Below, one piece after another: positions 15,953 through 60,869 of a DNA stretch of 64,000 nucleotides (position 1 is the stretch's first letter; the number at the start of each line of letters is the position of its first letter). The notes below the pieces were generated by a model, which was given only the letters and a program-made list of their open reading frames with translations, was not told the DNA's origin and searched no databases. The translations under genes were made by a program, and so were the position numbers. The stretch is taken from contig JASVEC010000019.1 in the NCBI GenBank assembly GCA_030770535.1, positions 496,001 through 560,000 on the forward strand, given 5' to 3'. The DNA comes from Batkoa obscura. Its lineage: Eukaryota.

Positions 15953-16078
15953 ATGCAACTTACTTTTCTTATCGCTTACACCGTTTACACTATGTCTGTA
16001 ATCACTTCAGTCCCTATTAACAACCAACCTGCTGCTGATCAAACCTATGGCTTTAAAACTCGCGGTCATTGGCCCTAG
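15953..16078 (+). CDS. HWP-family secreted peptide precursor 1: MQLTFLIAYTVYTMSVITSVPINNQPAADQTYGFKTRGHWP
   Basis: 41-aa ORF, TATAAATA about 65-70 bp upstream, AATAAA downstream; length and frame conserved among paralogs. Confidence 0.88.
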   Translation: MQLTFLIAYTVYTMSVITSVPINNQPAADQTYGFKTRGHWP

Positions 16079-17050
16079 ACACTGCACTCAACTTTAGATG
16101 ACTATCAAGAAGTTGTTTTTTACCAAATAAACATAGCTATATATGAATATATGTATTTAAAAAATTTAAATTTTATTTGACTCTTGATTTAGCCTCAAGG
16201 GCTTAGAAACAAAATATGGGAGTGTTTTTTTGACTTCATTATTTTTTCCATTTTTTAAGTGCTATTTAAGCGGAAAAATTGTTAGTAAAATTGTTAGACA
16301 CAAAAATACATCCCCATATGCTTATATTAATAATTTAGCAAGCCAGTAATTTTTTTGAAAGGGTGAAGTCTCAAGTGCTTAATTTATTAAGATAAAGAAT
16401 TGTATAAAGCGCTGTCACTACATATAAGCTTTAGTGAGGGAGTTATTATAAAGGGTGAGAACTTCTCCCAGTATGCTTCTACTTTTTTGGAACTTGATCA
16501 GGCAAAGATATCCCGCTTAACCTCAAGTCTTTGAATATTTTTCCAATCAGATAAGAGATACAATGGATACCAGAAGTGCCTAGTCTTCGTTTTCAACAGA
16601 AAGGCTATAAAACTCTTGACATTTACCAAAGACCAAGAGAAAAAAGGTAGATTTTGACATAGAGTGTATGAGACTAATATCAAAGATATGAGGAGATGGA
16701 AAATAAAAAATACATGAGGATGCTTTTTTTTGACTTTATCACTTTTTTTACCTTTCAAGCGCTATTTGAGTGGAAAAATTATTAGTAAAATTCTTAAACA
16801 CAAAAATACATTCTCATGTATATAATAAGCTTAATAGATTGATACTTAATAAAGGCAAAATTCTAATTAAACAATTTTATTTGAAATTATAGATAGATTC
16901 TTAGTATACCATATGGGGGGTGTTTTTTTGATTTCATTATTTTTTTCATCTTTTAAACGCTATTTGAACAGAAAGATTGTTAGTAAATTCCTAGACAAAA
17001 AAATACATCCCCATATTTTGTACCCAAAGAAACAAGGCTATAAAAATAGC

Positions 17051-17123
17051 TGGAGTAGCAGGGTTTCGATCCCCGTGCCCCTCGCATGCAAAGCGAGTAC
17101 TCTACCGATTGAGCTACTACCCC
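17051..17123 (-). tRNA. tRNA-Ala(TGC)
   Basis: Reverse complement GGGGTAGTAGCTCAATCGGTAGAG...CTCGC-TTTGCAT-GCGAG...CTACTCCA folds as a cloverleaf. Confidence 0.93.
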
Positions 17124-18077
17124 TAAGATACATCATTGTAGCTAATAATAGGTACATATTATTCTTTGACAGACTTTAAGGGGTCTCTTCTAAAATTAAT
17201 CAATTACAGCTTCATTTAGATAACAATTTTAGAATTATTGTAAGGGTCATTTAATTGTTTAGCATGTAATTATGTTGTAAATTTGAATCATTTAATTATA
17301 TGATAAATTTCCAAAGGTACTTGCTTAATTTTTAACTTCAAAGTTAGAAATAAGAAATGTTACTAATAAATCATTTTTTAAATAAATGCTTAAATTTTAG
17401 TTTATTATCATTTAAAATTTTACTACTAATCTTCTTAAATAGTATTTAAAGGATAAGAAAAGTAATAGAATAAAAAAACATCCTTATATTAAAATTAGTA
17501 AAATTAAAAAAAGCTTTATAATTTACAATAAAATTCAAAATCTTATTAAAGTTTTTGTTAGAATCAAACTAATATATAGGGATGTATTTTTATGTTCAAG
17601 AATTTTATTAACAATTTTTCCACTCAAATAGCGCTTAAAAGGATGAAAAAAGTGATGAAGTCAAAAAATACCTCTATATAATAATAGCTATTATTTAATA
17701 AATGTGAAATCTGGTTACCCAGTAGTTGAAATCAAAAATAGTCATTGCTTAATTGGCTAGCTATAAGCCGAAAGGTCTTAGTTTATGTGACTAAGATACC
17801 GGGATGTGTTTTTTTATTTAACAATTTTACTAACAATTTTTCCGCTCGGATAGCGCTTGAAACATGGAAAAAGTAACAAAACAAAAAAAACCATCCTCAT
17901 ATACTACTCGAATTATGAAAAGTAGCATGTAATATGTTACAGACTATGCAAGACAGATAGAATAGACAATACTACTGTAAAATCTACATAAAACATTATT
18001 AGGGGAATTTACTGGCTTTATTAAAGGTACAAGATATGAGGGAATAATCCAGTTAAAAAAGTTCTGAATTAGTATAT

Positions 18078-18175
18078 GGGGATGTATTTTTGTATTTAAG
18101 AATTTTACTGACAGTTTTTCCACATAGATAGCGCTTAAAAAATGGAAAAATAATGAAACTAAAAAAAACAGCCCC
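18078..18175 (+). mobile_element. ~99-bp MITE copy
   Basis: ATAT-GGGGATG...GCCCC-ATAT; absent from the paralogous sequence near 5770. Confidence 0.88.
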
Positions 18176-18742
18176 ATATTCTGAAATTTCTTCTATACTC
18201 CGATAAATATAGATATCAAAATGAAAGGATGGTATTTTTTAGGATAAAGTTAGAAATTCTAATAGTAAATCAAAATAAGAACATGGGATTGATTGTGTCT
18301 GAACTCGAGGACATAGCGACTTAAGTGATTATTATGTCATAATCAATCATAGAGCTGACAAAACGATATCGCAATTTTGCGTTGATACTCAAAAAACATA
18401 TTTAATGAAACTATCAAAAAATTAAACAATAAAAGTCGTATAATAGTTTTAAATTTTAAACAGAATATGGAAATAGGAACAAGACCGAACACAATATATT
18501 CAGATCATTATAAGAAACAAGCTATGTTAGTATTATGGTTTGATGTTTCGTATTTAAAAGATGTTAAAATAACAATGAAAGTTTATTTTGGCTATTTATC
18601 TGAAACATTAAATCATGATTCCGGTATACGTAGAATGTTTAATTGATTTGATTTCCACAAAGCTTTTATTTAAAGTTTACAAAATTAATATATGGGCAGA
18701 TACAGGAAATCATTTTAAATCTCAAGAGTTCCTACATTATAT

Positions 18743-18840
18743 GGGAATGTTTTTTTGGCTTCGTTACTTTTTTCATCTTTTAAACACTATTTGAGCAGAA
18801 AAATTGTTAATAAAATTCTTGAACATAAAAATACATCCCT
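18743..18840 (-). mobile_element. ~99-bp MITE copy inserted in the transposase frame
   Basis: Flanked by ATAT/ATAT. Removing the element and one ATAT restores CAT TAT ATA TTT AAA CAA (HYIFKQ) in frame. Confidence 0.88.
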
Positions 18841-19803
18841 ATATATTTAAACAAATTCCTAAAATAAATAGCAGTTTAAATATTGATCTTAATTTCTTTA
18901 CTGAGCATCATGTAAAAAGTATAGTTGATAGACATTTTGGAAATCTTTCACAATGGAAAAGTGGTTTTAAAGCATTAGATAAAATAGAAGATATTAATCA
19001 ATTAATTTCAAGATTTGAGACTTTTATTTGCGAACATAATAGGATTAATAACTTGACTGTTAATAATGGGAAAACAGATATAATTTTTTAAAAATATAAA
19101 AGAAACAAAAATACAAAAAGAACAATAGAAATGCAAGGTATTAAGAAGCATCTACACTTTATTAAACATAACAATAAGCTACACTGTTATTCAGTATCTG
19201 ATACATCAAAAAAAAGCGATATAGTTCCAATTAAAGTTATAGAGTCTATAGAAAATAGAAAAATTAAAAGATCAATCTCAGCTTATCTTACTAAAATAAC
19301 AGAGAATTAAATTTCGATGTTTACTAAGTAGTTTGTTAAATGATAGAAATCAATTGTTAAATGTTAATATTACTTAAGTTAATAAATAGTCAAAGAGCGA
19401 GTAGTTGTAGTAATAAAAACTATTATTATATTACTTGTACTATAAATCGATGGTTAATTATAGCTTTGGGGCCAACCACTCCCTTCCATGCAGTTATTTA
19501 TTAACTTAGTAATATACCAATGATGCATTTATAGCATTAAAGTAGTTTATTGAGAAATATTTATTATTGACTACTTTATAACCAACATTGCAGATTCGCT
19601 ATCAAATAGATAAAGCTTTATAAGAATACATTAACTAAAGTTATTACTTTAGCTGTATAGGTTTTTCTTAATTATGTCACTGGAGTGTTGTCTTTTTATA
19701 AAATATTTTTATCTCAGGAAAAAGCAATAAAATTAAAAACGGTCTCTATTTGTTTCTAAAATTCAAAGTCAGATTTATAGCAAAAGGGTTAAATCAAAAA
19801 ATA

Positions 19804-19875
19804 GGGCTCAGCTGGGAATTGAACCCAGGGCCTCTCGCACCCAAAGCGAGAATCATACCACTAGACCACTAAGCC
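19804..19875 (-). tRNA. tRNA-Pro(TGG)
   Basis: Reverse complement GGCTTAGTGGTCTAGTGGTATGATTCTCGC-TTTGGGT-GCGAGAGGCCCTGGGTTCAATTCCCAGCTGAGCCC. Confidence 0.95.
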
Positions 19876-22615
19876 TTATAAGTTAGGTTTTTAAAAATAT
19901 ATATACCATTTTGAGGGCTTAAAAATAATTCGATATTTAACATTGGGGATGTACCTTGTTTAAGAATTTTTCTACAATCTTTCCGCTTAAATAGCGCTTA
20001 AAAATGGAAAAAGTAATGGAATAAAAAAAACATCCTCTTTAGTATTAAACTAATTTATTCAATACATTTTACTATACTTATATCAATAGTGATAATTTTT
20101 TGAAAGGTAAAAAAACCAATGCATTTTTATTTCATGTATTTTCTAAAGTTTCGGATCTCAGGTTCCGTGAATGAACAAATTTAGTTAAATTAATAGCATA
20201 TCTTCCTTATATACTAGTGATCAGTAGATAAACTTGTATAAAGACATAATGACTATCAATGATATAAAAAATTATAAGGTTATATTATAAACATACTTCT
20301 AAATAAATAGAACAAATTTCATGAAACTCTAGAATATGTTACCTTAAACAAGCATTTACTATATATAAGATGAATTGATATTTTTTGTATAAAGTTTTGA
20401 AGGTTTCAAACTACGGTAAAGCTGAAGGAAATGGGCTTTATAATTAGAACAAAGACTCTTATTGTATTATATCTATTTTGGAATATGAAAAGCGATTTCA
20501 TATTTAATCATTTTTATTGGTATTTTATTTTTGAAACCTCAATGATTGTAAGGTACAAATTGGGGTATCATTTATAAAAATCAATTTTTTTTTACATATA
20601 GGAATCAAGCAAATTTAAAGATAACTGGCAGAAAAAGACTCTGATATATAAACCAGTATATATATATTGATGCTTGTAACTTAGTTTCAACCAAGTATAT
20701 AAGTCCCTAAGATTTAATGTCTTCAAACTATCTTAATTGTACATCCATAAAACTAGCATTTGTAAGTGTTTTAATTTGAGCTTATTTACGAAGTTATCTT
20801 GAATGGCATTTAAGAGCCAAAAAATAATTACTGGTTAATATAATTATTATCAATCCGAAATTAAGGATTAAGGATTGTTAGAAACTTTATGAACAAGACA
20901 AGTAAGAAATAACTTTATAAAACAGTTAGTAATTTTTGTAGTAAGGTTTTGTAGTATTTTTTTAATGAAAAAATAAAAGAATATTTTTCTTTTGATATCT
21001 TGAAAGAACTGGAGGTTCCCAATCATCTGTTTTATAAGTACAAGGTTTATCAAAAAGGGAAATAGAGAAAAGGTGAGTTAAAGATGAGTTAAGCATGAAA
21101 GTACTGTGGACACAAGTGAGATATGAATCAGGCAATTAATCGAAGGTAGCATAATTTAAGGGTTACTGGTCTTAACCAGATCAAAATGTATTTTAGTTGA
21201 TTTTTATCTGACTTTATATATTGGATCCAAGTGTGAAGTGATATAGGAGCGTTATTAGCTTTTTTTTAATATCTGTTAGTTGCTTATCTTTATATTGTAT
21301 AATAAATGAAACAGATCATAACGGCAGAACACACATCCATATGCTTTTTTGAATAAAAACTATACAAATTTTGTTTTCAGTTTTAAATATGAGATTAATT
21401 GTAAACTATTTTATTAATGAAATACTATTAAAATCTCATGATAATAATAAAAATAAGTCTTTTTAATGTTTAGTAATTTTAGTAATTTGATTTTATACTA
21501 TTGCTTCTACATGTCGTTTTTTTAATATATTAAAATTAATTTATTTGTTCGAATTTTTATATAGAACATACATCAGCTTAGTAACATAAAATATTCTTTA
21601 GCTCTTTTTTGTAAGATAAAACTAAATGTAATAGCATAATACTAGTTTTGATGCATTTAATTAAGATTGTGTAGGCTATTTATAATATCTACAAAACATG
21701 TGTTATTTAATAATTAATAAGATGCCACTATATTAATTCTATAACTATTCCACACTGTTAATTAATATACAGCAAATTGGAAATATTAGCAGGCGCTTAT
21801 TTATTAAAGTCTATAAGCATTTGTTTACTAAATAGACAAAATATAGGGGTGTTTTTTAGCTTCATCACCTTTTCTATCTTTTAACTGCTACTTGAGTGGA
21901 AAAATTGTTAGTGAAACTCTTAAACACAAAATTACATCCTCATATGTTTGATACAAATAAAAAGCTTAAATTAATACCACTCTCTTGGATTAAGTCTTAC
22001 TTTGATCATGAGGTATATCACAGAATTCAATTTCTAATTGTAGGTAGGAATGTAACATCCTATTATTATAGTGGTCCTGATTTACTTTTTAAAGTTTATA
22101 GTATCTATAAAGCTCAAAGTGGATTTGGCGATAATTTATATTCCAACATACATTAAAATCAGTTTTTTCTTTCAATTATTATAATTATTAGGATGATAAA
22201 TTTATATAATATCCAAATTATGGATAAATTTTAGTCGAAAACGCAATTGTTCATTAATATCACATTATATAAGTGATTTGTTTGTATAGTCAACGCTATA
22301 AAATATATAAAAATCGGAATTACATGGTTCTAGAATGGAATATACGGAAAAACAGTTCTATTTTTGATAATAGTTTAATTAAATTGGACTAAAGATTTAT
22401 AAATAGGTAGATGAATTTATTACACATGGACTCAATAAGCTCCATTTTAACCAGTATAAAAAACAAAGACATTAATATTCTTGCATTAAACCTGTTTATG
22501 CTATATTGTAACATCTACAGTCCTAGTCTGGAACAAATATATAAACCCAAAAGGTCAAATGGTTTTTGAGTTATTTTGAAAACAAACTTTTTCATTTAAA
22601 AATAATAATTAAAAG

Positions 22616-22753
22616 ATGAACTTCAATTTAATCTTCGCATTTGCCCTATCTGTTTTATCAATTAATTCTTATCTTGTTGCTCATGATAATCCCGTTATTC
22701 CAAAAACTACAGTTGTTGGTAACGACGAAGGTCCTCCTGGACATTGGCCTTAA
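22616..22753 (+). CDS. Divergent HWP-family precursor 2: MNFNLIFAFALSVLSINSYLVAHDNPVIPKTTVVGNDEGPPGHWP
   Basis: 45-aa ORF with A-rich start context, TATATAAA about 75 bp upstream and a hydrophobic signal; ends GHWP-stop. The track ORF 22641-22832 is a different frame. Confidence 0.82.
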   Translation: MNFNLIFAFALSVLSINSYLVAHDNPVIPKTTVVGNDEGPPGHWP

Positions 22754-24110
22754 ATTTACCCATATGCATATTTATTTATATGTATGTATAATCCATTTAC
22801 CTTATTCCATAACCGGTTGGCTTATATATTAGTAAAAACGAATATAGTATAACTTTGATTATTTTAAAACTTTATTTTTTAGCTACATATACTTTAGATA
22901 CTCTTGAATATTTAAGTTCAGATTATACCAAAATAAAATTAATAAATGTAGCAAATTTTTCCTCGGCTTAAAGCATTTCCTTTCAATCATTGGAAAAAAA
23001 CAATGTAATATATGAGCAGTAGGATTTGACTTTAATCACTATTAATGACACTGATTCACTAGTGAAGTTAAGAATAAAAAGTAACATCAAAGGATTTAGT
23101 TCTTGATTCATAAACATCAAATAGTTAATAAAAAGTTTCTTTTGGCATTAATCATTCATTGATTTAGTACTATTTGGTAAATTTTTTACCTTTGAGTTAA
23201 ATACATCTTTGTCTATATTAACTTTATGAAATGAACTAATTAATCAACATAATCTAATAGAATTTTATTTTTATGATGAAGTGATCTGCCGTTAACCAAA
23301 CTCAGTACAAAATCGATACATCCATTCAAGGTTTAAATTTCTGGACCACAATTTTTAATGGGTTTTAAAGCTATAAAATCTTGATCTGCTATATATGTTT
23401 GATTTGTAAATTACCTTTTAAGTGGAAACTTCTAAAGTATTTATTTTATATTAATTTTTGTTTTCTACCTTGGGTTTGAAGAGCTGATCATATATCTGTT
23501 AAACTATTAATAAAAGTGGGGCTTGAAATACTGTCCCAAGTAAAATACCTCAACTTGATAAGGTTTTATTCCCCCTAAAGGGCAAAGTAGGATACATATA
23601 TATTTGATATTTCCAGTTCAATAATCAACTGGAGTAATCAGTGCAATCACTTCATAAAGACAGTTGGATACTTTTACGTTTCCATAGAGCAAGATTTGAA
23701 GGATACTTTTTCTCTGAAGCAAGTCATTTTGTTCTAGTATTACTAATACTGTTATGGAAGATTATTAATAAAATTGTCGAAATCATTGATAGTTAGAACA
23801 ATGAAATTAGTTATATTATAAAGAAATTGGGTCTACTTCCAATTCTTTATAAATTTGAGGTGGCAATAACATTTAGTAACTCATTATCTCAATAAGCTAC
23901 TTTTATTTATAATGAATATCCAGTTTACAAAACTAGTTATCCATAAAATGCTTTTGTTGCTAAAACACATTAATATCTGAACTATGATTCTAATTTAAAA
24001 TTAGATTAAATCAATGCTTAATTTCCTTAGGTCCATTCTTATATAATCTAAATAACGGGTTTATACTGGTCTCATTGATGTTTTTGTTTTTGACATTTAA
24101 TGAAGAATAT

Positions 24111-24209
24111 GGGAGTGTTTTTTTTGACTTCATTATTTTTTCCATTTTTTAAGCGCTATTTAAGCAGAAAATGTGTTAGTAAAATTCTTAGACACAAAAA
24201 TACATCCCC
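24111..24209 (-). mobile_element. ~99-bp MITE copy
   Basis: ATAT-GGGAGTG...CATCCCC-ATAT; nearly identical to the copy at 16218-16315. Confidence 0.88.
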
Positions 24210-24635: not shown

Positions 24636-25544
24636 TCAATTAGATTGTTTCAATTTAATAAAGTAAGTTTTATCAAAGAAGGAAGAATCGCTATACCATT
24701 CTCCCACTTGATTAATTTCTTTTAAAAAGATGCTATTAGTTAAAAATAGTAGTGAATTAAAAAAACCTTGTAAACCAGAAAAAAAGGCGCCAATATCACC
24801 AATAGTAGAAACGGTCATCTTATTCAATTCAATTTTAAAGATAGCAAATATAAACACAACCATATAAAACACATAGCTAATTAAAGGTATTAATGGATAA
24901 ATGAATAGTCGTATAAAGGCTCTATATTGTATTGAAGAGCCATTACTTCCACTACCGATTCCTGATCGACTTAACATGCGCTTCTTTAATGCTAAATAGT
25001 AGATGATTACAATATAAATAATGGGACATATAAACACGGTAATAAAAGTAGCTCCAAACTTAGTAGCTAAAATCCAAACAACTCCATTGTTTTTCATATT
25101 AAAGCCACATCCATCTGCTGTCCTTATCCTATCAAAAGCTAGTGGCAATGTACTTAATATTATAGATAGTATTGGTGCTATACTGTACGTTAATACCCTC
25201 ATTGTTAAAGTTAATCTTAGTTCATATTTGATTGCTAATAAGAATATAATTGATATAGTAGCTGCATAAAACATTGATAAGGATATGGATAAAATTTCCA
25301 TCCATTGATAGATTTTACACGCTATTGGTGGCAAATCAATAAATATAAACCCTATTTGACATATTGAATATAATAAATCACTTATTAATATGAATACGGA
25401 AATTAAATAAGGTATATTATTGTTGACTCGATTGTTGATAAAAGATACAGTAATAAATAAAAGTAATGAATATAATGTTACTATTATGGATAGTGAGTTA
25501 GCATAGTATTGTAACATATACTCTGTAAATTGTGATCTAAACAT
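24636..25544 (-). CDS. 7TM GPCR-like receptor (cAMP-receptor/Git3-like)
   Basis: 302 aa, about seven hydrophobic segments, SDLLY in TM2, Cys before TM3 and in ECL2 (DGCGF), RLFIYPLIP in TM6, LQGFFNSLLF in TM7. Confidence 0.85.
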   Translation of the reverse strand: MFRSQFTEYMLQYYANSLSIIVTLYSLLLFITVSFINNRVNNNIPYLISVFILISDLLYSICQIGFIFIDLPPIACKIYQWMEILSISLSMFYAATISIIFLLAIKYELRLTLTMRVLTYSIAPILSIILSTLPLAFDRIRTADGCGFNMKNNGVVWILATKFGATFITVFICPIIYIVIIYYLALKKRMLSRSGIGSGSNGSSIQYRAFIRLFIYPLIPLISYVFYMVVFIFAIFKIELNKMTVSTIGDIGAFFSGLQGFFNSLLFLTNSIFLKEINQVGEWYSDSSFFDKTYFIKLKQSN

Positions 25545-27967: not shown

Positions 27968-29374
27968 ATGAATTCAATTTATAATCTCCTTTTCTTTTTA
28001 TTTCCACTGTTCATTCATAGCAATTTCTTATATTTTAAATACAGAGATCCATCACCTACTCAATTAGCTCATAATAGTCGATTACTTAATTCAGTACAAC
28101 AATTATGGTTTAATCAATCTTTATCCCATAATAATTCTGAATTAGAATCTGGTTATTGGTCCCAACGTTATTTTATAAATGATCAATATTATCGTCCTGG
28201 AGGTCCAGCTTTCTTATTTATTGGTGCGGAAGGAGAATTATATGGGGATTATTGGACGACTAATTCAATCTTAACAACGGCAGCAGAACAACAAGGAGGT
28301 ATTATCTATGCATTAGAACATCGATTCTATGGTGAATCTTATCCAAAACAAGATTTATCTTTAAATAGTTTAAAATATCTAACATCTGAATTAGCTATTT
28401 TAGATATTGTTAATTTTGTTAAAGATATAAGTGAGAAAAATAAGAATACTCAATGGATTTTACATGGCGCTAGTTATGCAGGGAATTTAGCTGCTTGGGC
28501 AAAATACAAGTATCCAGATACATTTCATGGGGCTATTGCTTCATCAGCTGCATTAGAAGCTAAAATAGATTTCTTTGAATATGATTTAATGGTTCAAAAA
28601 GCATTATTAACTCACGGAGGACAATCATGTTTAAATTATCATTTAGAAAACTTTGAATTTATTAATAATATATTATTGAATGGAAGTATAGAAGAGAAGT
28701 ATGAATTGAAAAAGAGATTCACATGTGAAACTGTTAAAGATGATGAGTTTGGTTTAGCTTTTTTATATTTATCTGCTTTAGTTCAATATAATGAAAAAAA
28801 TAATTTAAAAAATTATTGTAATTCATTAATGTTAAATGGGACATCAAAAGAAAAGTTTGAAGATTTTATTAGAGATTTTAAACTCCGTTTAAATAACAAG
28901 AAATGCGGAGAGGACTTCAATTATTTAAAATACAGTTCAATTGAAAAACCGAATCGTGGAGATGCTTTTAGACAATGGATGTATCAATGTTGTACTGAAT
29001 TTGGATATTGGCAAACAGCCCCATTAAATCAATTACCAGTAAGATCGAAATTATTAACTATTAATTTTAATATGGAATTCTATTGTAAAAATACATTTGG
29101 AATTAATAATAATTTAATATTAAATGTAACAAAAACAAATTTAAATTATAACAGTAAAAATATTAAAGTTAATAATTTATTATTAGTTAATGGTCAATTA
29201 GATCCTTGGTCTTCATTATCTATTATTAATTCAACATATGATTCAATGAAAATTATTAATGTTATTAATGGCTCACATTCAATGGATATCTATAAACCAG
29301 ATAGTAATGATCAATTAGAAGTAGTAGATGCTAAACAAAAAATATTACAATTTATTAATCAAATTTTGAAATAA
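27968..29374 (+). CDS. Secreted serine peptidase, family S28 (paralog of 8519-9958)
   Basis: Signal peptide; LEHRFYGES, GASYAG, RQWMYQCCTEFG, NGQLDPW, GSHSMD. Confidence 0.95.
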   Translation: MNSIYNLLFFLFPLFIHSNFLYFKYRDPSPTQLAHNSRLLNSVQQLWFNQSLSHNNSELESGYWSQRYFINDQYYRPGGPAFLFIGAEGELYGDYWTTNSILTTAAEQQGGIIYALEHRFYGESYPKQDLSLNSLKYLTSELAILDIVNFVKDISEKNKNTQWILHGASYAGNLAAWAKYKYPDTFHGAIASSAALEAKIDFFEYDLMVQKALLTHGGQSCLNYHLENFEFINNILLNGSIEEKYELKKRFTCETVKDDEFGLAFLYLSALVQYNEKNNLKNYCNSLMLNGTSKEKFEDFIRDFKLRLNNKKCGEDFNYLKYSSIEKPNRGDAFRQWMYQCCTEFGYWQTAPLNQLPVRSKLLTINFNMEFYCKNTFGINNNLILNVTKTNLNYNSKNIKVNNLLLVNGQLDPWSSLSIINSTYDSMKIINVINGSHSMDIYKPDSNDQLEVVDAKQKILQFINQILK

Positions 29375-29465
29375 ATTTTTTAATTTTTATTATTAATTTT
29401 GATTTTCTTTAATAAAGTTAATAAACTATTTTAAATATTCAAATATTTATAGTTAATTAAAATAT

Positions 29466-29564: not shown

Positions 29565-30244
29565 ATATTTTGATTATTTACAGAGTAATAGCAATAAATC
29601 AATCTTATATTAATAAAACCTCTGCTTTTTAACATTTAAAATAGTATAGTAAAAAACTATTAATGATCATCCTTTTTAAATTCACAGCAAAATTATTTGC
29701 TAAATTTGAACATAGATACTAATAATTTTTTTACTTAAATAGTGCTTAAAAGATAGAAAAAGTCATGAAGCCAAAAAAACACCCCCATATTTATTTTTAG
29801 CATCTTCAATATTTCAATATATAACCTTTTTTTTTGATTTTATAGATATTACATTATATTTATTAATAATAAAAATCAGAAAATTCACTCTAATTTTTAA
29901 TTAATAACAATATAAGGTTTAATTTAATGTTTAAAGTCAGTGATAGCAAATTTTAATTACATTGCATTAGCTATATTAATAGCTAGCTAGTTATTAATAA
30001 AAATTAAATGATTATAGATAGAATATAAACAATATAAGCAATAAAGAAAGTAAGTCACATTGGATTTGTAAGTAACGTATATAATATAATATAATTTTAT
30101 AAGATAATAAAATCTTTAATATTTATATTTTAATGATATTATAATTTATAATAAAACTTTAATTAAAGTTGATAGTATAAATGTATTAATCTAATATTAA
30201 TAAAGTAGTTTGTTTAAAACTTAAACACAAAAGCACATCCTCAT

Positions 30245-33025: not shown

Positions 33026-33151
33026 TTAAGGCCAGTGACGACGGATTTCAATTGCTTTGGGTTTATCAGCAGCTGGTTGGTTATTAGTAGGAACTGAAGT
33101 GATTACAGACATAATGTAAACAGTGTAAGCGATAAGGAAAGTAAGTTGCAT
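33026..33151 (-). CDS. HWP-family precursor 3a: MQLTFLIAYTVYIMSVITSVPTNNQPAADKPKAIEIRRHWP
   Basis: 41-aa ORF on the minus strand with TATAAATA upstream; first of three identical copies. Confidence 0.88.
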   Translation of the reverse strand: MQLTFLIAYTVYIMSVITSVPTNNQPAADKPKAIEIRRHWP

Positions 33152-34913: not shown

Positions 34914-35039
34914 TTAAGGCCAGTGACGACGGATTTCAATTGCTTTGGGTTTATCAGCAGCTGGTTGGTTATTAGTAGGAACTGAAGTGATTACAGACAT
35001 AATGTAAACAGTGTAAGCGATAAGGAAAGTAAGTTGCAT
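34914..35039 (-). CDS. HWP-family precursor 3b (identical to 3a)
   Basis: Identical ORF 1888 bp from 3a. Confidence 0.88.
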   Translation of the reverse strand: MQLTFLIAYTVYIMSVITSVPTNNQPAADKPKAIEIRRHWP

Positions 35040-36877: not shown

Positions 36878-37003
36878 TTAAGGCCAGTGACGACGGATTT
36901 CAATTGCTTTGGGTTTATCAGCAGCTGGTTGGTTATTAGTAGGAACTGAAGTGATTACAGACATAATGTAAACAGTGTAAGCGATAAGGAAAGTAAGTTG
37001 CAT
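36878..37003 (-). CDS. HWP-family precursor 3c (identical to 3a)
   Basis: Identical ORF 1964 bp from 3b. Confidence 0.88.
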   Translation of the reverse strand: MQLTFLIAYTVYIMSVITSVPTNNQPAADKPKAIEIRRHWP

Positions 37004-39343
37004 TTTGTATATAGTAATTTGTATCTAGTGTAATATAATTATATAGTATGATAAAACCACCACTATTTATACTTCTTGTTAATAGTATGTAATGATATTA
37101 TAAACGTTAAATGAGTTGATAACACGGATGTATTATTTTAAGGTTAATGGACCGGTTTGTTTATAACTTAAATGTATAGGTAACACATGGTGTATTATAA
37201 TATACTGTCGTTGGCTGAGTAAATGTCAGATTGTATTTATATCAAAATACTTTTGTTATTCTTAATTTAAACTTTTTACGATCATGCTTAATAATTTTCC
37301 AAAAAATTGGTTTGATTGTATTATTATACACCCTATTAACAAGTATTTTTAAAGCCTAGAGTCTACTTAATTTTTAAATATTTTATCGCGGATTTCTTAA
37401 CTAATAAAGAGAAAATTATAAACTTCTCAGAGTACTTTTTACTTACTATTTAAGCTTATGTCTTTATCGAAAAATATCATAGATGGTCATACCAAACAAT
37501 AAATCATTCAACTATCGATGGTTATTATTGGTCTATACGCTATATGAAATTAGTTTTATATTAGTTATTATTATTTTCAAGTTACCTTATGTTTTATAAG
37601 TTTATTCAACTTTTAATTTGATTTTATAAATTACTTTACTAGTATTTGAGTATTAGTGTGAAAAACTCTTAACATCAAATTTTAAAATATTAAAATTGAA
37701 TATACCAAATATAACTAATATACAGAGTTTAATGAGCAAATCTGGTTTTTAATAAAATTGATTCCCTTTGAAATTTAACTCAATTTAGAATTTAACATCT
37801 CTGTGCAAATTTGTCAAAAAATCTACTAAATTCAATAATCTACCCACAAAAAAACGGTATGATATATTGATATTTCCAAGCACATTATCACCATAGGAAA
37901 ATAGATGACTTACATTTTTAGAAGTAAAATCGTGTAGTATAAAATTTTATTTGTATTTATGATTTAAGTGGTAATTGATTGTTCATTTACTTTGGAAAAG
38001 TTAACATTTTCTAATCGATATTAAAAAATTAAAAGCGGTAGAACATGTTGATTAATAATACATACTTTCAAATTTGTATTTTCTCCCATAACAGTTATAT
38101 CAGTTACATACATGGGATTAATTTATCGCTTAATAAAGAAAAAGTGTAACTAAATAAAGACGGCTTTAAAGTTAACTATTATACAATTTCTAGATTACTT
38201 TTATACTGATTGATACCAATCATTATTATACTATTAATATGTTTATAAGAATTGTTTACTTTTAGGCCTTTAATTGATCTTAATTCATCTAGGAACTTTT
38301 TTGCTGATGTACAAAGATTCAAAAATATCATTATCTTATAAGCTCTATTTTTTTATTGATCAATTATTTGACTTTGATTACTTTGAATCATAATAAATGA
38401 AAATGAACTATTTTTAATGGGTAGTATTTTTTGAAATACTGAAAAGGGTGTAAATCCTAAATGTTTTATTAGTATTAGAAGTATAGAGATGATAAATTTA
38501 AGCTGATTTAAAAAAATAAAATGGTAATGTATATAAATCATCGATTAGTAACTTATTTTTACCTTGTAATATTTTATTTCTTATGAAACTTGATAGTGTT
38601 TAAGTAATAGTAAATACATATTAAAAAAGATGTAGAAAAACAAGATGGGTTGTATTGTATCTAAGACCATAGACTCATTTGAAATCTAGTTTGCTCTAAA
38701 CTTTTTAAACAAGTTGAAATTTTTTATGAGTTAAATCTAAAAGTAAGTGTTTAATTTTTAAATAGTAGAATGCTTCAACTGTGTGTTTTTTTGATCAAAA
38801 TTTTTTTATATTTTGCATGACTACCAGACATCTTGTAAATGGCTGTTAGAAACATGAACTACTTTTATTTCCTGCCAAATCATTTCTTTCCAATAAAAAA
38901 TATAAGCCAACTAATTTGTAATAAATAACCTCGGAAAAAAATGCAAATTAAAATCGGAAAACGAGTTGAGCCTTATGTTTAAGTATTATTAGACTTATCA
39001 CCTTTAGATTTTGGCTTTTAGTAGATTAAATATAGCAATATACTACATAAGATAGCTAATAAACTAAATCTAAAAATAGTTTTAATCAGCAAGGTATATA
39101 GTAGGTACAACAATACATTTTCTTCTTGAAGTCCGATGACCTTAGATATAATAATATTTAAAAGTTTCTAGAAACTTTCCTTTTATAGATTATCCATAGA
39201 TTATTTTTAAATTAGATTATACACATCGCTTCAACTTAAAATTATTATCAGTTTTGTAAATGGTTTGACAATGGCTGAATCATCAAAAACTATATAAGCA
39301 AAGAGTGCGCAGACATCCAAACTAAAAATTAAAAATAATAAAT

Positions 39344-43210: not shown

Positions 43211-44116
43211 CTATATTTTACAAAATCTGCCTATTCTATAAGGGTCATCCAGTTCTTTCAATCCAAATATCTTGTCGTAGGCATTATTTAATTCTTTAGT
43301 TAATATTGAGTTAGTTAAAAGCAAAATGGAATTTAATAGGCCCTGTAACCCAATGAGAAAAACGCTACTGATCTTCAAAATTTTAAATATTGTGTTATCT
43401 ATCATTTTTTCAGACAACACAAAAAATACCAAAAATATCATCAAAGAGTGGGTTATAATTGGGAGTAGAGAGTAGCTAAGTAGCCTTGATAAAGCTGAGT
43501 GATTACTTTGCTTTTGGGCACTTGAACTCAAATTTGACTTTTTTCTCATTGTTTTTCTGACAAAAAAATTGGCTATTATAATATATATCACAGGTATCAC
43601 TATTATTGCAATAACCATTGAAATACTATTGCAAAAAGCTAACCATAAGTCTCCATCAAGGTCATCATAATATGAGCATTCATTATCCGTATCAATTTTC
43701 TTGAATATTATTGGTAATATGCAGGAAAGAATTGATAATATAAACGGTACTATATATATAATGTATTTTATCACCTTTCTAACTTTATATTCGTACACAA
43801 TATTTAAAAGATAAAGTATAGCTATTACTATCGAGTAATACACTGAAATTGAGAACCCAAAAGTATTGGCAGATTGAGAGAAATAACATAAATGTGAATT
43901 TGTATAGACTATTGGAAGGAGCTTTATTAGACCTCCAATATTGTAAAGCAAATCACCTGTAGCTATTAAAATAGAAATACGATATGTGATTGATTGATTG
44001 ATTTCTTTATTGACAATTGAAATACATATACATAATATAAGTGAAAACGATATGGCAGTAATTGATATTGTATTAGCGAAGCTGACAATGAAAGCTCCAT
44101 GAAAACCTAATTTCAT
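43211..44116 (-). CDS. 7TM GPCR-like receptor (paralog of 24636-25544)
   Basis: 301 aa; GDLLY, LCYF, NECSY, RLLSYSLLP, LQGLLNSILLLTNS. Confidence 0.85.
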   Translation of the reverse strand: MKLGFHGAFIVSFANTISITAISFSLILCICISIVNKEINQSITYRISILIATGDLLYNIGGLIKLLPIVYTNSHLCYFSQSANTFGFSISVYYSIVIAILYLLNIVYEYKVRKVIKYIIYIVPFILSILSCILPIIFKKIDTDNECSYYDDLDGDLWLAFCNSISMVIAIIVIPVIYIIIANFFVRKTMRKKSNLSSSAQKQSNHSALSRLLSYSLLPIITHSLMIFLVFFVLSEKMIDNTIFKILKISSVFLIGLQGLLNSILLLTNSILTKELNNAYDKIFGLKELDDPYRIGRFCKI

Positions 44117-46566: not shown

Positions 46567-46692
46567 ATGCAGCTTACTTTTATCATCGTTTATACTGTTT
46601 ACATCATGTCCACAATCACTTCAGTCCCAGTCAACAACCAACCAGCTTCTAGTAATGCCTCTCATCTTGGAACTCACCCTCATTGGCCTTAG
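46567..46692 (+). CDS. HWP-family precursor 4: MQLTFIIVYTVYIMSTITSVPVNNQPASSNASHLGTHPHWP
   Basis: 41-aa ORF with TATAAATA upstream and the conserved upstream module. Confidence 0.88.
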   Translation: MQLTFIIVYTVYIMSTITSVPVNNQPASSNASHLGTHPHWP

Positions 46693-51345: not shown

Positions 51346-51471
51346 ATGCAAGTTACTTTACTCATCGCTTACACTGTTTACATTATGTCCTCAATCACTT
51401 CAGTTCCGGTCAACAACCAACCAGCTGCTAATAAAGCCTATGGTTTTGAAACCCGTGGTCACTGGCCTTAG
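51346..51471 (+). CDS. HWP-family precursor 5a: MQVTLLIAYTVYIMSSITSVPVNNQPAANKAYGFETRGHWP
   Basis: ATG at 51346 (the track start is an upstream GTG); 41 aa. Confidence 0.88.
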   Translation: MQVTLLIAYTVYIMSSITSVPVNNQPAANKAYGFETRGHWP

Positions 51472-53464: not shown

Positions 53465-53590
53465 ATGCAAGTTACTTTACTCATCGCTTACACTGTTTAC
53501 ATCTTGTCTTCAATCGCCTCAGTTTCGATCAATAATCAACCAGCTGCTGGAAAATTCTTTAATAGTGGGACTCATCGTCACTGGCCTTAA
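53465..53590 (+). CDS. HWP-family precursor 6a: MQVTLLIAYTVYILSSIASVSINNQPAAGKFFNSGTHRHWP
   Basis: 41-aa ORF with TATAAATA upstream and AATAAA downstream. Confidence 0.88.
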   Translation: MQVTLLIAYTVYILSSIASVSINNQPAAGKFFNSGTHRHWP

Positions 53591-55865: not shown

Positions 55866-58624
55866 CTTCAAAGTTAAAAGTTAAAAGGAAAGTGTTTTTT
55901 TATAATTTTATATCTGATAACTTTTATTTATTTAATTGATTAACTTGTTCTATAATAAATTGTATTTATTTGATTTTTCAAATAGAACATAAAACATGAT
56001 ATGAGAGTGTTTTTTGATTTTACCACTTTTACCATTTTAAGCGCCGTTTGAGCAGAAAGATTGTTAGTAAAATTCTTGAAGAAATACATCTCTCATATAT
56101 TAAATTTTCTAGTCTATTGTTTAGTGAACTATAAAATTTAATATGGCTAGTTTAAAAGAGTATAATTAATAGTTCCATAATCATTCAACTCAAACTAAGA
56201 TTTGAATTAAGGATGGACTCTGGTATAAATGTCAAAATATATGAGAATGTATTTTTGTACTTAAGAATTTCACTAACAATTTTTCCACTCAAATAATGTT
56301 TAAAAGATGAAAAAAACAATGAAGCAAAAAAAAAAAACACCCCCATATGATCAAAGTAATTTGATGTATTTTATATAAGTTGTTAAACCTATTCAATTAG
56401 AGCCTCAAAAAACCAGCTTACTTTGATTAGAAAGCTCAAATCATCCTCCACATTTGATACTTTCAGTAAGATTATATTTGTAATCCTAATAAAAAATATA
56501 GACTTATCTTTATCTAAACTCTTTTTGTTGATTTACTCTTTTATCTAACCTTTTCCAGCTAAAAACCCTAGATGCATGTTTGCTATAACCTCTGGAAAGA
56601 TGCCTATATAGCATTTATTCTTTTGAATACCATTTCCGAATTCGAGTTTGTCTCAATCAACTGCTGCCATTACTTCCCACTAAATTCCACGCTTTCATAA
56701 GTTTTCGTAATAAATCCCTTGTGTTACCTTTATTGTTCCAGATACTATCTACATTTAACTTATCTCATTCCTCCCACTATTTGTCTAATTTTTTATTTTG
56801 GCTTTTTGATAAGGCCTTTTATCTCTTCTACACGATTATGGACTTTACATAAAAGTTGCACTTTAACTCACTTAATCCACTGACAATCCCATCATTTACC
56901 TATAATTACAATCCTCTTCTCATTTATTGAGATATCCTCCAGAAATTAGAATCAAGAAATTACTATTTTACCTTCTTATATCAACCAAATTTAAGAATGA
57001 GCTGAACTATGTCTTTGAGTTCTTAAACAGGCTGCTCTCAATGGTTCAGCGCTTTAAGTTTATTAATTTTTGATTTAAAATTTTTGTATTAAATAAAATA
57101 TTCGGAACCGATACCCGAAAGAAAAAAGACGTTTAAAGTATTTGAGAAGACACGATTTATTTGGTTTATCCTCTCTTCTATCATAAAAACTTAAATTTAA
57201 TAAAATTATTACTATACTACATTTAAGTTATAATTAGACTTGGGCTTCAACTTGTGGCTCATAATTATATTGACTGAATAGATCAACAAACAATTGCGGA
57301 GCGTTAACTATAGACTTAACTTGAATAGGATTAAACCAAATACACTTTCAAATATAGGTAAAAATTATTTATAAGGGGGCTAAAATATGATAGAAATTTT
57401 ATATTAGGGGAAGTCTAAGATAAGTATATATTTTGTACCATCCATTTTTATTTCATTCAATATGATCCTATGCTTGGTTAATTGATATCTTGTTTAATCA
57501 ACTACCATTTAAACATATTATAATAATGTAGTTACCTAAATTATTATAAACGTTTTCTATCATTATTATTATGTTACTGGGGTATCATCTGCTGTTACAT
57601 TAACTAAATTCATACTCCACAATTTTAATTTCAAAGGTATAGGCTATCTAGTTTTTATATTAGAAAGCCTTTTTATGAAAATAGCTAGTATATTATTCAA
57701 GCTTTTTTTGGACATCATTTTATTTAGTACATTTACTTAACAAGTTTGCTCACAAAAGGCAAATCCCAAAATGAGTTAAATTTTAAAGGGATTCAATATA
57801 ATGGTATCCCTGATTTATTTATTGTTAGACTGCACTTTAATTTAATTTGTTTATTTTTAGTCTATTTATAAGTATGTATTAAAGATATTTTCACATTTAT
57901 TGTAATGTCATCTAAAATGTTTATTTACTTGTTTTATATGGATATCTAAAGTTGAAAATAAAAATAAAATAATAATAATAACCAATAAACAATTAAATAT
58001 TGTATATTTTGTAATGACATCAACAAGATAAAAACCTATTTAATTGACTTTATGGTTATTTTATCGTAATAACATGATGATAAGTTATGAATAAAAGTAC
58101 CCGATGTAATGATTATTTCAATTTATTAGTTAAAAGGTGCGTTATATGGGGATACTTTTTTGATTTCATTTTTTCCATTTTTAAGCACCATTTGAACAGA
58201 AAGATTGTTAATAAAACTTTTAAAATACATCCCCATATAATATTTATAAAAGTAAATAGACACTAAAAGTTTTAGTATTTTTAAAAGGGGTACACAATAA
58301 TTTATGGAATATAGCTCTTCTATTTAGACCTTTGAAGAATAAAATCGTAAAAAGTTCAAATAAAGGATGGTTAATAAAAGTATTATATTGTTAATATATT
58401 TCAAATATTATTTAATCAACAACAATGTGTCACATCTACCATGTGTTGTTAATGTAAATTAAGTTACAAACGAGGCTAATTATTGAACTTAATTTGAGAT
58501 ATATACCATAAAACCAAATCAATATTTACTCACAATTATATATTGTAATCAAGAAGTATATATAGTGGTACTTTACCATTCAATTAATTCAAATTACCTT
58601 AGATACAAATTACTTATAGATAAA

Positions 58625-58750
58625 ATGCAAGTTACTTTACTCATCGCTTACACTGTTTACATTATGTCCTCAATCACTTCAGTTCCGGTCAACAACCAAC
58701 CAGCTGCTAATAAAGCCTATGGTTTTGAAACCCGTGGTCACTGGCCTTAG
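58625..58750 (+). CDS. HWP-family precursor 5b (identical to 5a)
   Basis: Copy within the tandem duplication. Confidence 0.85.
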   Translation: MQVTLLIAYTVYIMSSITSVPVNNQPAANKAYGFETRGHWP

Positions 58751-60743
58751 ACATTAAATCATATCTTAGATGACTATTAGAGAGATATTACTTAGAAATA
58801 AAGACAAAGATATAGAAATAACACTATTTTGAATACCTCCAAATAACAATATTTATTGTAAATCATGAAAGTTAAAAGTTTATTATTTTATTAATAGTAG
58901 AATATTTAGATATGACAATGTATTATTTTTTCACTCTTTATACACAGTAAAATTGAATAAAATTGTACTAGACCTTGAACATATTCCTACATCAAAGATA
59001 ATTTTAAATTTGCTTTATATTGATAAAACTTGATGTGTTAACGAATATGCTTGAGATTTTAGTCATATAAAACTTTAATGTGCTAAAATAAATAGAATAT
59101 TGATAAGTTTACGATTTTAACAAATTCATGTTTGCTAACATCAACTTATTATTTATTGTTTTACCACTTCACTAAAATATATACATCTGCACTTTGGCTC
59201 TATATCTTTAAACCAAATTTCATATTTTATTGTAATATTTTGATATTTTGTATTTCATGAAAACTAAAGATTTACAAAATTACATCATTTTTTCTAGAAT
59301 ACCATAGGGGGATATATTTTTGTATTTAAGCGTTTCGCTAACGATTTTTTTTACCAAATAGCGCTTAAAAGATGAGAAAAGCAATGAAGTCAAAAAACAC
59401 ACTCTCATAGACTTCTATCTCAACTCGTGGTTCATTAATTATATTAATGGAATAAAATAGTGAACAATAAAGGGGTATTATACATTGTATTAACTTGATT
59501 AGGACTAAATCGATCACATTTTTAAATAAGTCAAAGCTATATACATGGGACTAAACCTTATTAGATATTTTATACTAAGGGAAACTTGTGCTTGATCTAT
59601 TCTTTGATGATCATTTCTTGCTTTAACTGTAGGAAACTAAACCTGGTTAATCCAAGCAACTTGTTCAATATCTTTTATCACTACACTTTTGCTAAAACTA
59701 AAGGATAATAATACCCAATACTTGTTGAGGTTCTTCTTGTTACTGAGATATCATTTGTACTTTATTGATTAAAACTATTATTCTAATCAAAGTCTTGTAT
59801 CCTACGCTTCTAAATCTAATGATACAAATAATCTATCTCAGATATTAATAATCTTTTTTTAAGAGTACCAAATATATTATACTAGTTTTTTATGGATAAC
59901 TTAATAAGTTTAGTAATTTGTACTCCAATTTTAAATATAAGAGCTAAATTATAAAATCAGTTAAATTTCAAAGGGATTCAATTTTAGGTTAAACTCGATT
60001 TTTTATTGGACTATAATACTTTGGTTATATTTAGTATATTTATCAATATTTCTAAAGAAACACACATTAAAAGTTCCTTCAACTTCAATGTTTGTACTTT
60101 TTTCTAATTTCGTTATTACCTGAGCTAAAAGTCAAATAACTATAAAATAGACAATGATGTCAAGGTAATAACAATTAATACAAGATTAGAGACCATATAG
60201 TCGACAGCTCAAAACAACAAGTTGTTAACAGTTAAGTATTTTATAATATCAAATTGTAATGAAAATAATTTTATATAACAATAACGTGAAAATGACTAAT
60301 AGATACGAAATAGCCAAAAACGACTATTAACTTATTTTTATAAGTCAATATGTACAGGATGAATATTTATAAACTTAAGTGGACCTAGGTTTTAAACATA
60401 TTTATTAAAAGGGTGTATAAAAATATGAGAAATCTATTTTTTTTATTCAAATTATAAAACATAAATATAGAGTTTTTAAATTAGAAGCAACTAATAATGA
60501 TACACTATAACCGTAAATCAAGTATGTATTTGGTCAACGACAGTGGGATATATACCACGAGCTATTGACATAAATCAGGTCATAAAGAAACCAAACTATA
60601 AAGTTTAATTGAATTGTCATGGGTAGTAACACATCTAATGTTTTTAATATAGTTCTATAATTTTACCAAAAAATATAAATAGAAGTAATTTTATCACCTT
60701 TATAAAATTTAATTGTGTTAGGTACTTATCAACTATAAACAAA

Positions 60744-60869
60744 ATGCAAGTTACTTTACTCATCGCTTACACTGTTTACATCTTGTCTTCAATCGCCTCA
60801 GTTTCGATCAATAATCAACCAGCTGCTGGAAAATTCTTTAATAGTGGGACTCATCGTCACTGGCCTTAA
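60744..60869 (+). CDS. HWP-family precursor 6b (identical to 6a)
   Basis: Copy within the tandem duplication. Confidence 0.85.
   Translation: MQVTLLIAYTVYILSSIASVSINNQPAAGKFFNSGTHRHWP

What the first reader, a model, noticed from the sequence alone, without database searches (positions are those of the whole stretch)
15953..60869. Hidden family of ten secreted micro-peptide precursor genes ending in invariant His-Trp-Pro
Seen: ten ORFs of 41-45 aa at 15953+, 22616+, 33151-, 35039-, 37003-, 46567+, 51346+, 53465+, 58625+ and 60744+, giving six distinct sequences. Nine share a ~19-aa signal-like leader, a spacer V(P/S)xNNQPA(A/S) and a variable 13-aa tail: DQTYGFKTRGHWP, DKPKAIEIRRHWP, SNASHLGTHPHWP, NKAYGFETRGHWP, GKFFNSGTHRHWP. 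Length, frame and stop are conserved, and the HWP codons vary only synonymously (CAT/CAC, CCC/CCT, TAA/TAG), which is what selection on a peptide produces. Each has a TATA box about 65-75 bp upstream. Inference: these are single-copy prepro-peptides releasing a C-terminal bioactive peptide. The architecture resembles the Cryptococcus Qsp1 quorum peptide or plant CLE/CEP precursors, not CAAX or Kex2-repeat fungal pheromones. I do not recognise the family.
Basis: partly seen in the sequence, partly recalled or inferred. Interest (0 to 1): 0.92.

Follow-up and report, generated by a model that had tools for sequence, protein, structure and literature searches.

The report
HWP peptide–receptor cluster in entomophthoralean fungus
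A fungus, probably an insect-infecting entomophthoralean, carries a family of tiny selected genes whose predicted secreted products all end in His-Trp-Pro and lie among orphan G-protein-coupled receptor genes, likely a peptide signalling system in a fungal group whose mating and cell-to-cell signals are poorly understood.

Summary
Observation confirmed. Ten ORFs of 41-45 aa end in HWP-stop (chance mean 0.06); six distinct sequences, plus an unnoticed decayed eleventh copy. Codon models show purifying selection on leader (omega 0.31), spacer (0.23) and HWP (0), and a fast 10-residue variable part (omega 1.5-1.7, not significantly above 1); 0 indels in the coding part against 19 in flanks. No homologue in 5.8 billion proteins or 1.84 billion representatives. 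The only outside receptor relative is from Neoconidiobolus thromboides (41%), so the host is probably entomophthoralean. Best reading (0.5): secreted precursors trimmed to about 13-residue ligands, HWP as shared receptor-engaging end, variable part as address, sensed by the neighbouring GPCRs. Binding, secretion and the mature product are inferred, not shown. Not a member of CAAX/STE3, Kex2/STE2 or Pit2/Gpe1 systems. New peptide family of a known kind.

The parts
15953..16078 (+). HWP precursor 1 (41 aa)
   Evidence: TATA -69, AATAAA +48
22616..22753 (+). divergent HWP precursor 2 (45 aa, 20-27% identical to the others; shares M1, S15, P26 and HWP)
   Evidence: low-depth RNA-like contig over 22693-22841 in X2
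29935..30060 (-). decayed HWP precursor copy, stop at codon 2 and further stops, AT-drifted
33026..33151 (-). HWP precursor 3a
   Evidence: a variant contig lies over it in X2
34914..35039 (-). HWP precursor 3b (identical coding sequence, converted tract)
36878..37003 (-). HWP precursor 3c (identical coding sequence, converted tract)
46567..46692 (+). HWP precursor 4, head-to-head with GPCR2 (2.45 kb)
51346..51471 (+). HWP precursor 5
53465..53590 (+). HWP precursor 6
58625..58750 (+). HWP precursor 5, copy in the 7.28-kb duplication
60744..60869 (+). HWP precursor 6, copy in the 7.28-kb duplication
24636..25544 (-). GPCR1, intact 302-aa orphan seven-helix receptor
   Evidence: AF2 model pLDDT 61 with seven long helices; GPCR folds at Z 18.6-20.9, rmsd about 3-4 A, about 250 aligned; RNA-like contigs
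43211..44116 (-). GPCR2, intact 301-aa paralogue (28-32% to GPCR1)
   Evidence: nearest Atlas clusters cAMP-receptor-like, score 0.96; 41% to N. thromboides P0004
54973..55865 (-). GPCR3, broken (frameshift near the 5' end and an in-frame stop)
   Evidence: weak 7tm_1 hit, E 4e-5, below cut-off
62252..63144 (-). GPCR3 broken copy in the duplication
38079..38251 (+). possible GPCR relic, head-to-head with precursor 3c
   Evidence: nhmmer E 9e-5, tblastx E 7e-8; not seen by the protein profile
8519..9958 (+). S28 prolyl peptidase a, Ser/Asp/His motifs intact
   Evidence: PF05577 E 2e-94; motifs; PDB relatives
27968..29374 (+). S28 prolyl peptidase b, motifs intact, head-to-head with GPCR1
   Evidence: PF05577 E 3e-86
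22929..23327 (-). S28 gene fragment between precursor 2 and GPCR1
   Evidence: tblastn E 4e-11

Best explanation
These are selected micro-genes whose precursors are likely secreted and trimmed to short His-Trp-Pro-ending peptides that are predicted to act as ligands for the orphan GPCRs encoded among them, a fungal cell-to-cell signalling cluster. Shown: coding selection, invariant HWP end, fixed length, fast-changing 10-residue part, GPCR fold of the neighbours, S28 peptidases with intact catalytic motifs, repeated co-duplication. Inferred: signal peptidase cuts near residue 19 (ITS|VP); a Pro/Ala-specific enzyme, possibly the clustered S28, cuts after the Pro26 that all six share and a dipeptidyl step removes Ala-Ala/Ala-Ser, as Ste13 does for alpha-factor, leaving about 13 residues; the free HWP end would enter the receptor pocket while the variable part would set which receptor or strain responds; the terminal Pro would slow carboxypeptidases. 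The S28 enzymes could equally destroy the signal. The process controlled (conjugation and zygospores, self-recognition, density, spore type) is not determined.
For: Omega by region (MG94 codon model, five paralogues, best tree): leader 0.31 (p 6e-4 against 1), spacer 0.23 (p 7e-4), HWP 0 (p 4e-4), variable 1.70 (p 0.09); parsimony gives the same contrast, Fisher p 0.002-0.005 on three trees; 0 gaps in 126 coding columns against 19 in 375 flank columns. A conserved terminal motif plus a variable address of fixed length is the layout of paralogous receptor ligands (established knowledge). Four receptor loci of one small clade plus a possible relic lie inside the peptide array; the clade has 1 relative outside the window in two searches; paralogues are 28-38% identical, so they are old, as is the split between precursor 2 and the rest. 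A Cys at the top of helix 3 (3 of 3 full rows) and in loop 2 (4 of 4 rows) matches the disulfide of peptide-binding Gpe1 (PMC13652807). Neighbouring ligand and receptor genes are the rule at basidiomycete P/R loci (PMC5100862) and for Pit2/Gpe1. RNA-like contigs cover GPCR1 and S28b nearly whole, and a variant contig over precursor 3 has three amino-acid changes, all in the variable part, and two silent ones among the rows shown.
Against: GPCR genes are common in these fungi (125 in 44.2 Mb in Conidiobolus coronatus, PMC12387763: about a 17% chance per 64 kb by my arithmetic, more with Pfam-invisible ones like these), so co-location is modest evidence. DJ-1/PfpI, kelch and 129-aa secreted genes are co-duplicated in the same region without an evident signalling role, so this may simply be a turbulent accessory region. 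Described class V (cAMP-receptor-like) fungal receptors sense sugars and amino acids or have unknown ligands (PMC13308352). P0004 may be a paralogue elsewhere in the same species, which would mean the clade is not confined to the cluster. Variable-part omega is not significantly above 1, so it may be relaxed rather than diversified. GPCR3 is broken while precursors 5 and 6 beside it are intact. No shared promoter block between receptor and peptide genes beyond shared intergenic DNA. The runs are only guessed to be RNA, and the contig over precursor 2 (depth 3.9) is little deeper than intergenic contigs (2.2-2.3).
Confidence: 0.5

Rival explanations
1. Outward-directed secreted peptides (effectors acting on an insect host's receptors, blood cells or proteases, or on competing microbes), expanded in a repeat-rich accessory region; the GPCRs are bystanders.
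For: Fast variable part, copy turnover, pseudogenes and gene conversion that raises dosage; neighbours are mostly secreted families; 34 hits of a MITE-like repeat; probable host is an insect pathogen group.
Against: No Cys, no amidation Gly at the end, only 13-22 residues; 'HWP' absent from the main text of one insect neuropeptide survey and the supplements of another (figures not held, so weak); does not explain several old receptor paralogues inside the array.
Confidence: 0.22
2. Qsp1-like autoregulatory signals: secreted, matured outside, then imported or sensed by a receptor encoded elsewhere.
For: Same layout as described for Qsp1: secreted pro-peptide matured to an 11-residue peptide by a cell-associated protease (PMC7537855, PMC6571750); protease genes in the cluster.
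Against: No oligopeptide transporter among the window's long ORFs (genome not held); six variable tails are more than one density signal needs; receptors are on the spot.
Confidence: 0.15
3. Non-signalling products: substrates or inhibitors that regulate the clustered S28 prolyl peptidases, or small metal- or surface-binding peptides; only the last 4-6 residues matter and the variable part is a neutral tether.
For: Terminal Pro and His-Trp motif; S28 genes co-duplicated; omega of the variable part compatible with 1.
Against: Tether length is fixed at 10 in five paralogues with 44% of bases diverged; positions 36-37 keep T/I and R/H; receptors unexplained.
Confidence: 0.09
4. Repeat or non-coding element that only looks like a coding family.
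For: None of the 6 distinct precursors is in the protein collection although 5 of 11 neighbouring proteins looked up are; direct expression evidence is thin.
Against: Significant purifying selection in three regions, no indels, Kozak-like A at -3 in most copies, TATA and poly(A) signals, and a decayed copy that shows what loss of selection looks like. Gene callers routinely drop ORFs of this size (established knowledge).
Confidence: 0.03

Closest known systems
Basidiomycete P/R (B) mating-type locus (PMC5100862, passages)
   Same: Repeated subunits of one GPCR gene with one or several short peptide-precursor genes; old receptor paralogues; precursors of about 40 aa with a variable C-terminal peptide.
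   Different: No CAAX or Cys, a signal-type leader instead, receptors without STE3 hit; no strain-specific alleles seen at GPCR1 (1 silent difference in X1, none listed in X2-X4).
Ustilago maydis Pit2/Gpe1 (PMC13652807, abstract and two result sections)
   Same: Secreted precursor gene next to an orphan GPCR gene; short protease-released ligand; helix 3-loop 2 Cys pair.
   Different: Pit2 is a folded dimeric scaffold with an internal peptide cut by host proteases, one pair per genome; here 41-45 aa precursors, terminal motif, six peptides and three receptor paralogues, fungal S28 enzymes; no DUF6533 hit.
Ascomycete alpha-factor and KEX2-processed repeat proteins (PMC6339444, PMC7329392, passages and supplement searches)
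   Same: Secretory route, unmodified peptide of about 13 residues, possible X-Ala/X-Pro dipeptide trimming.
   Different: One core per precursor, no flanking KR/RR sites, no STE2 hit; GHWP/RHWP not found in the supplements searched.
Cryptococcus Qsp1 (PMC7537855, PMC6571750, passages)
   Same: Small secreted pro-peptide matured to a short peptide.
   Different: Qsp1 is imported by Opt1 and acts inside the cell; here surface receptors are clustered and no transporter is seen in the window.
Amanita MSDIN cyclic-peptide precursors (recalled, no call)
   Same: Short precursor family, hypervariable core bounded by invariant Pro, prolyl peptidase of the alpha/beta-hydrolase clan.
   Different: MSDIN has no signal peptide and needs a follower after the core Pro for cyclisation; here the Pro is the last residue and the enzyme is S28, not S9 POPB.

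Membership tests
Basidiomycete P/R pheromone locus | Receptor and precursor genes clustered in repeated subunits | tested here: met
Basidiomycete P/R pheromone locus | C-terminal CAAX, farnesylated lipopeptide | tested here: not met
   0 Cys in 6 of 6 precursors, all end HWP
Basidiomycete P/R pheromone locus | STE3-family receptor (PF02076) | tested here: not met
   no STE3 hit at E<=0.1 for GPCR1, GPCR2, GPCR3 part or P0004; Atlas neighbours are cAMP-receptor-like
Basidiomycete P/R pheromone locus | Strain-specific alleles that segregate with mating type | tested here: inconclusive
Alpha-factor / KEP precursors | Signal peptide | tested here: inconclusive
   uncharged leader, mean hydropathy 1.2-1.5 against 0.8-1.5 for secreted neighbours and -1.8 for DJ-1; no SignalP available
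Alpha-factor / KEP precursors | Repeated cores flanked by Kex2 dibasic sites | tested here: not met
   single core; one RR inside the tail of precursor 3 only
Alpha-factor / KEP precursors | Ste13-type X-Ala/X-Pro dipeptides before the core | tested here: inconclusive
   AA or AS after Pro26 in 5 of 6; motif definition; cleavage not tested
Alpha-factor / KEP precursors | STE2-family receptor | tested here: not met
   no STE2 hit
Pit2/Gpe1 | Ligand gene beside its GPCR gene | tested here: inconclusive
   adjacency shown; that the peptide is the ligand is untested
Pit2/Gpe1 | Ligand hidden in a folded scaffold, released by host proteases | tested here: not met
   precursors are 41-45 aa with the motif at the end
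Pit2/Gpe1 | DUF6533-type receptor family | tested here: not met
   no such Pfam hit
Qsp1 | Import by an Opt1 transporter and action inside the cell | not testable with these tools
   no genome held; none among the window's long ORFs
Qsp1 | Extracellular maturation by a cell-associated protease | not testable with these tools
   S28 genes present; activity unknown
GPCR superfamily (neighbour genes) | Seven-helix GPCR fold | tested here: met
   top rows are class A GPCRs, Z up to 20.9, rmsd 3.0, 259 aligned
Fungal class V cAMP-receptor-like GPCR | Dicty_CAR domain PF05462 | tested here: inconclusive
   no Pfam hit but nearest Atlas clusters carry PF05462 in 51-74% of members, score 0.96
S28 prolyl peptidases (neighbour genes) | PF05577 above cut-off with Ser-Asp-His motifs | tested here: met
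   endo- versus exo-type not resolved, E 5e-31 to 1e-26 for fungal prolyl endoprotease, DPP2 and Pro-X carboxypeptidase
MSDIN cyclic peptides (features recalled) | Follower sequence after the core Pro; no signal peptide | tested here: not met
   Pro is terminal, hydrophobic leader present

The most novel reading that the evidence does not exclude
This is the mating or self/non-self recognition locus of an entomophthoralean fungus: a third fungal pheromone chemistry (unlipidated, single-core HWP peptides read by a receptor clade unrelated to STE2 and STE3) that reached the multi-subunit layout of mushroom B loci independently, with its own S28 maturing or clearing enzymes.
Probability: 0.17. 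Interest if true: 0.92.

Novelty: new variant of a known kind. Interest (0 to 1): 0.7.

Why it matters
Most fungal GPCRs are orphans (PMC13308352, abstract passage) and mating genetics in Zoopagomycota is described as not well understood (PMC10386755, passage); entomophthoralean sex is unresolved and assumed homothallic (PMC8588673, passages). Six short, unmodified candidate ligands and two intact candidate receptors make the question directly testable with synthetic peptides and an existing yeast reporter (as used for Gpe1). A positive result would give a peptide-GPCR pair in an early-diverging fungal lineage, for which my ten literature searches listed none, and a handle on spore and resting-spore development in fungi used against insect pests. 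It also shows a gene class that annotation drops: none of the six precursors is in a 15-billion-protein collection that holds their neighbours.

Tried and rejected
Peptide homologues: none by word search with precursor 1, by hmmsearch of the six-sequence profile over 1.84 billion representatives (0 hits), by Pfam (1 of 6 with a sub-threshold chance hit), by the ESM Atlas (no usable hit), in metagenome contigs (61 pattern matches, 0 confirmed) or prokaryote genomes (38 matches, 0 confirmed). These collections hold few eukaryotic micro-ORFs, so this shows absence from databases, not from related fungi. Receptor loci in metagenomes: 513 matches, 0 confirmed, so linkage in relatives was not tested. 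No whole genome held. Complex prediction of GPCR1 (1-285) with precursor 2 (16-45): score 0.00 twice, verdict 'no answer', alignments not used, peptides untested for this tool; neither support nor evidence against. No listed run is on record as RNA. In the stretch laid (20500-34000, 4 of the 5 listed runs) X3 and X4 gave no depth in the bin holding most of precursor 3a, and X4 none in the bin of precursor 2; contigs do not show absence. Model of the 129-aa secreted neighbour: pLDDT 34, unusable. Trees of paralogue promoters had no starred branch. Earlier findings of this scan: three look-ups, nothing. Literature: ten searches; 'His-Trp-Pro' gave 6 papers, none on fungal peptides by their listing. 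RIP as cause of the decayed copy: C-to-T is the commonest change (17 of 67 ungapped differences) but without a CpA preference; not supported. MSDIN-type cyclisation rejected (no follower; features recalled).
Full report
Observation. A six-frame scan for W-P-stop returns 10 ORFs, all at the coordinates given and all ending His-Trp-Pro. The codon pattern occurs 10 times against 0.06 on average in 100 simulated windows. There are six distinct proteins: five 41-aa paralogues 59-78% identical and a 45-aa outlier at 22616 that shares only M1, S15, P26 and HWP. Two ORFs belong to a 7,279-bp tandem duplication, 99.96% identical, which may be an assembly artefact. Three are identical over about 350-390 bases around the gene while their flanks are 68-78% alike, the mark of gene conversion. 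An eleventh copy at 30060 (minus) has decayed. TATA-like boxes lie at -67 to -78 in 10 of 10 and AATAAA at +47/48 in 8 of 10.

Are they genes? On the five alignable paralogues a codon model with shared synonymous rate gives omega 0.31 for residues 2-19, 0.23 for 20-28, 1.70 for 29-38 and 0 for HWP; the first, second and fourth differ from 1 (p 6e-4, 7e-4, 4e-4), the third does not (p 0.09; 1.48 and p 0.21 on a second tree). Parsimony counts agree (17 replacement and 21 silent changes outside the variable part, 28 and 8 inside; Fisher p 0.005). The coding part has 0 gaps in 126 columns, the flanks 19 in 375. The outlier was left out of these counts because it cannot be aligned codon by codon. 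The leaders are uncharged and as hydrophobic as those of the secreted neighbours; SignalP was not on hand. So the genes are real and selected; the variable part is relaxed or diversifying, and the data cannot tell which.

Expression. Five runs hold 5-14% of the words of 15700-25600; none is on record as RNA. Four were laid on 20500-34000. Long contigs cover GPCR1 (24406-25528 in X1, one silent difference) and S28b (nearly whole in X1, X3, X4), while several intergenic bins are near zero, as expected of RNA. For the peptides the evidence is thinner: a 152-base exact contig over the 3' half of precursor 2 in X2 at depth 3.9, close to intergenic contigs at 2.2-2.3; and in X2 a contig at depth 44.5 over precursor 3a with five listed differences, three changing residues in the variable part and two silent (73 rows of that table were not shown). 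That contig is another copy or allele, and its pattern repeats the paralogue pattern.

Surroundings. The window is 26% GC with intronless genes. The left edge holds an ataxin-2/Pbp1 gene. From 3.7 kb on lies a region of repeated duplication and decay with five recurring gene types besides a 129-aa secreted family: HWP precursors, seven-helix receptors, S28 peptidases, DJ-1/PfpI and secreted kelch proteins. GPCR1 (24636-25544) and GPCR2 (43211-44116) are intact; GPCR3 (54973-55865, and its duplicate) has a frameshift and a stop; a possible relic lies at 38079-38251 (E 9e-5). They pass no Pfam cut-off, but the GPCR1 model (pLDDT 61, four-row alignment) matches class A GPCR structures (Foldseek E down to 4e-5; Z up to 20.9), and the Atlas puts GPCR2 beside cAMP-receptor-like clusters (0.96). 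The paralogues are 28-38% identical over their shared part. Two searches found one relative outside the window, P0004 of Neoconidiobolus thromboides (41% to GPCR2); these searches need shared five-residue words and miss distant kin. From this hit and the base composition I infer an entomophthoralean fungus (lineage); P0004 may be an orthologue in another species or a paralogue elsewhere in the same one. Five of 11 neighbouring proteins looked up are in the collection exactly, 0 of 6 precursors. Both intact S28 enzymes keep Ser, Asp and His motifs and are about equally close to the fungal prolyl endoprotease, DPP2 and Pro-X carboxypeptidase.

Mechanism. The layout leader, spacer, variable 10-mer, invariant free C-terminal tripeptide is that of a ligand family. 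I infer cleavage at ITS|VP, a cut after Pro26 (invariant even in the outlier) and removal of the Ala-Ala or Ala-Ser dipeptide, the X-Ala/X-Pro rule described for Ste13 (PMC6339444, passages); that S28 members cut after Pro or Ala or remove such dipeptides is recalled. The product would be about 13 residues, but a 22-mer or a very short C-terminal piece is not excluded. I give 0.5 to the clustered GPCRs being the receptors: they are a small old clade sitting inside the array, GPCR2 is head-to-head with precursor 4 and the relic with 3c, they keep the helix 3-loop 2 Cys pair, and adjacency of ligand and receptor genes has precedent at P/R loci (PMC5100862, passages) and for Pit2/Gpe1 (PMC13652807, abstract and sections 6 and 10). 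Against: a related fungus has 125 GPCR genes in 44.2 Mb (PMC12387763, passages and section 3.1), so chance co-location is about one in six or more; unrelated-looking genes co-duplicate in the same region; with eleven peptide loci in 45 kb any gene there is within a few kb of one; known class V receptors sense nutrients or are orphans (PMC13308352, passages and section 10); GPCR3 is broken beside intact peptides. Rivals are host- or competitor-directed peptides (0.22), a Qsp1-like imported signal (0.15; PMC7537855 and PMC6571750, passages), peptidase regulators or binders (0.09) and non-coding (0.03).

Comparison and novelty. It works like a pheromone/receptor locus or Pit2/Gpe1, but fails membership of each on a defining feature (no CAAX, no Kex2 repeats, no STE2/STE3/DUF6533 hit, no scaffold). 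No homologue was found in any collection searched, and ten literature searches listed no description; GHWP and RHWP are absent from the supplements held for two fungal peptide surveys, HWP from one insect neuropeptide paper's main text and another's supplements. Figures, subscription journals and bioRxiv supplements (for example of 10.1101/2023.09.13.557621, passages seen) were not seen and could bear on novelty. [quoted passage not shown]

Verdict. A real, unannotated, selected micro-peptide family in a cluster with orphan receptors and prolyl peptidases: a new variant of a known kind, cheap to test. Interest 0.7; 0.92 if it proves to be the mating or self-recognition locus (probability about 0.17).

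Noticed in passing
window 29457-29570 and 33 further blastn hits: About 110-bp dispersed repeat with terminal inverted repeats, MITE-like; present in many contigs of the RNA-like runs.
   Followed up: partly
window 50035-56721 and 57312-64000: 7,279-bp tandem duplication, 99.96% identical; recent duplication or assembly artefact.
   Followed up: partly
window 32860-37200: Three old 1.9-kb tandem units homogenised only over the precursor gene and about 200 bases of promoter: localised gene conversion.
   Followed up: yes
window 3721-4110(-), 6600-6989(-), 10504-10893(+): Three genes for a 129-aa secreted six-Cys protein without Pfam match; the last two lie in a 99.7% inverted duplication flanking S28a; model unusable.
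   Followed up: partly
window 39344-40066(+), remnants 32065-32753(+), 54273-54584(-), 61552-61863(-): DJ-1/PfpI gene and three decayed copies travelling with the cluster.
   Followed up: partly
window 40395-41519(-), 12567-13709(-), 47638-49000(+), possibly 30544-31323(+): Secreted kelch-repeat gene with a hydrophobic C-terminus and broken kelch-like relatives.
   Followed up: partly
window 1-2790(-): Ataxin-2/Pbp1 homologue (SM-ATX, LsmAD), intronless, running off the window; marks the conserved edge of the region.
   Followed up: partly
window 5159-5233 and two further sites: Three tRNA genes (Arg, Ala, Pro) inside the region.
   Followed up: no
up to 1.3 kb upstream of the 41-aa precursor genes: Non-coding blocks 65-74% alike between copies, with a conserved CATGTGT near -185 in most; possible regulatory elements, not shared with the outlier at 22616.
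   Followed up: partly
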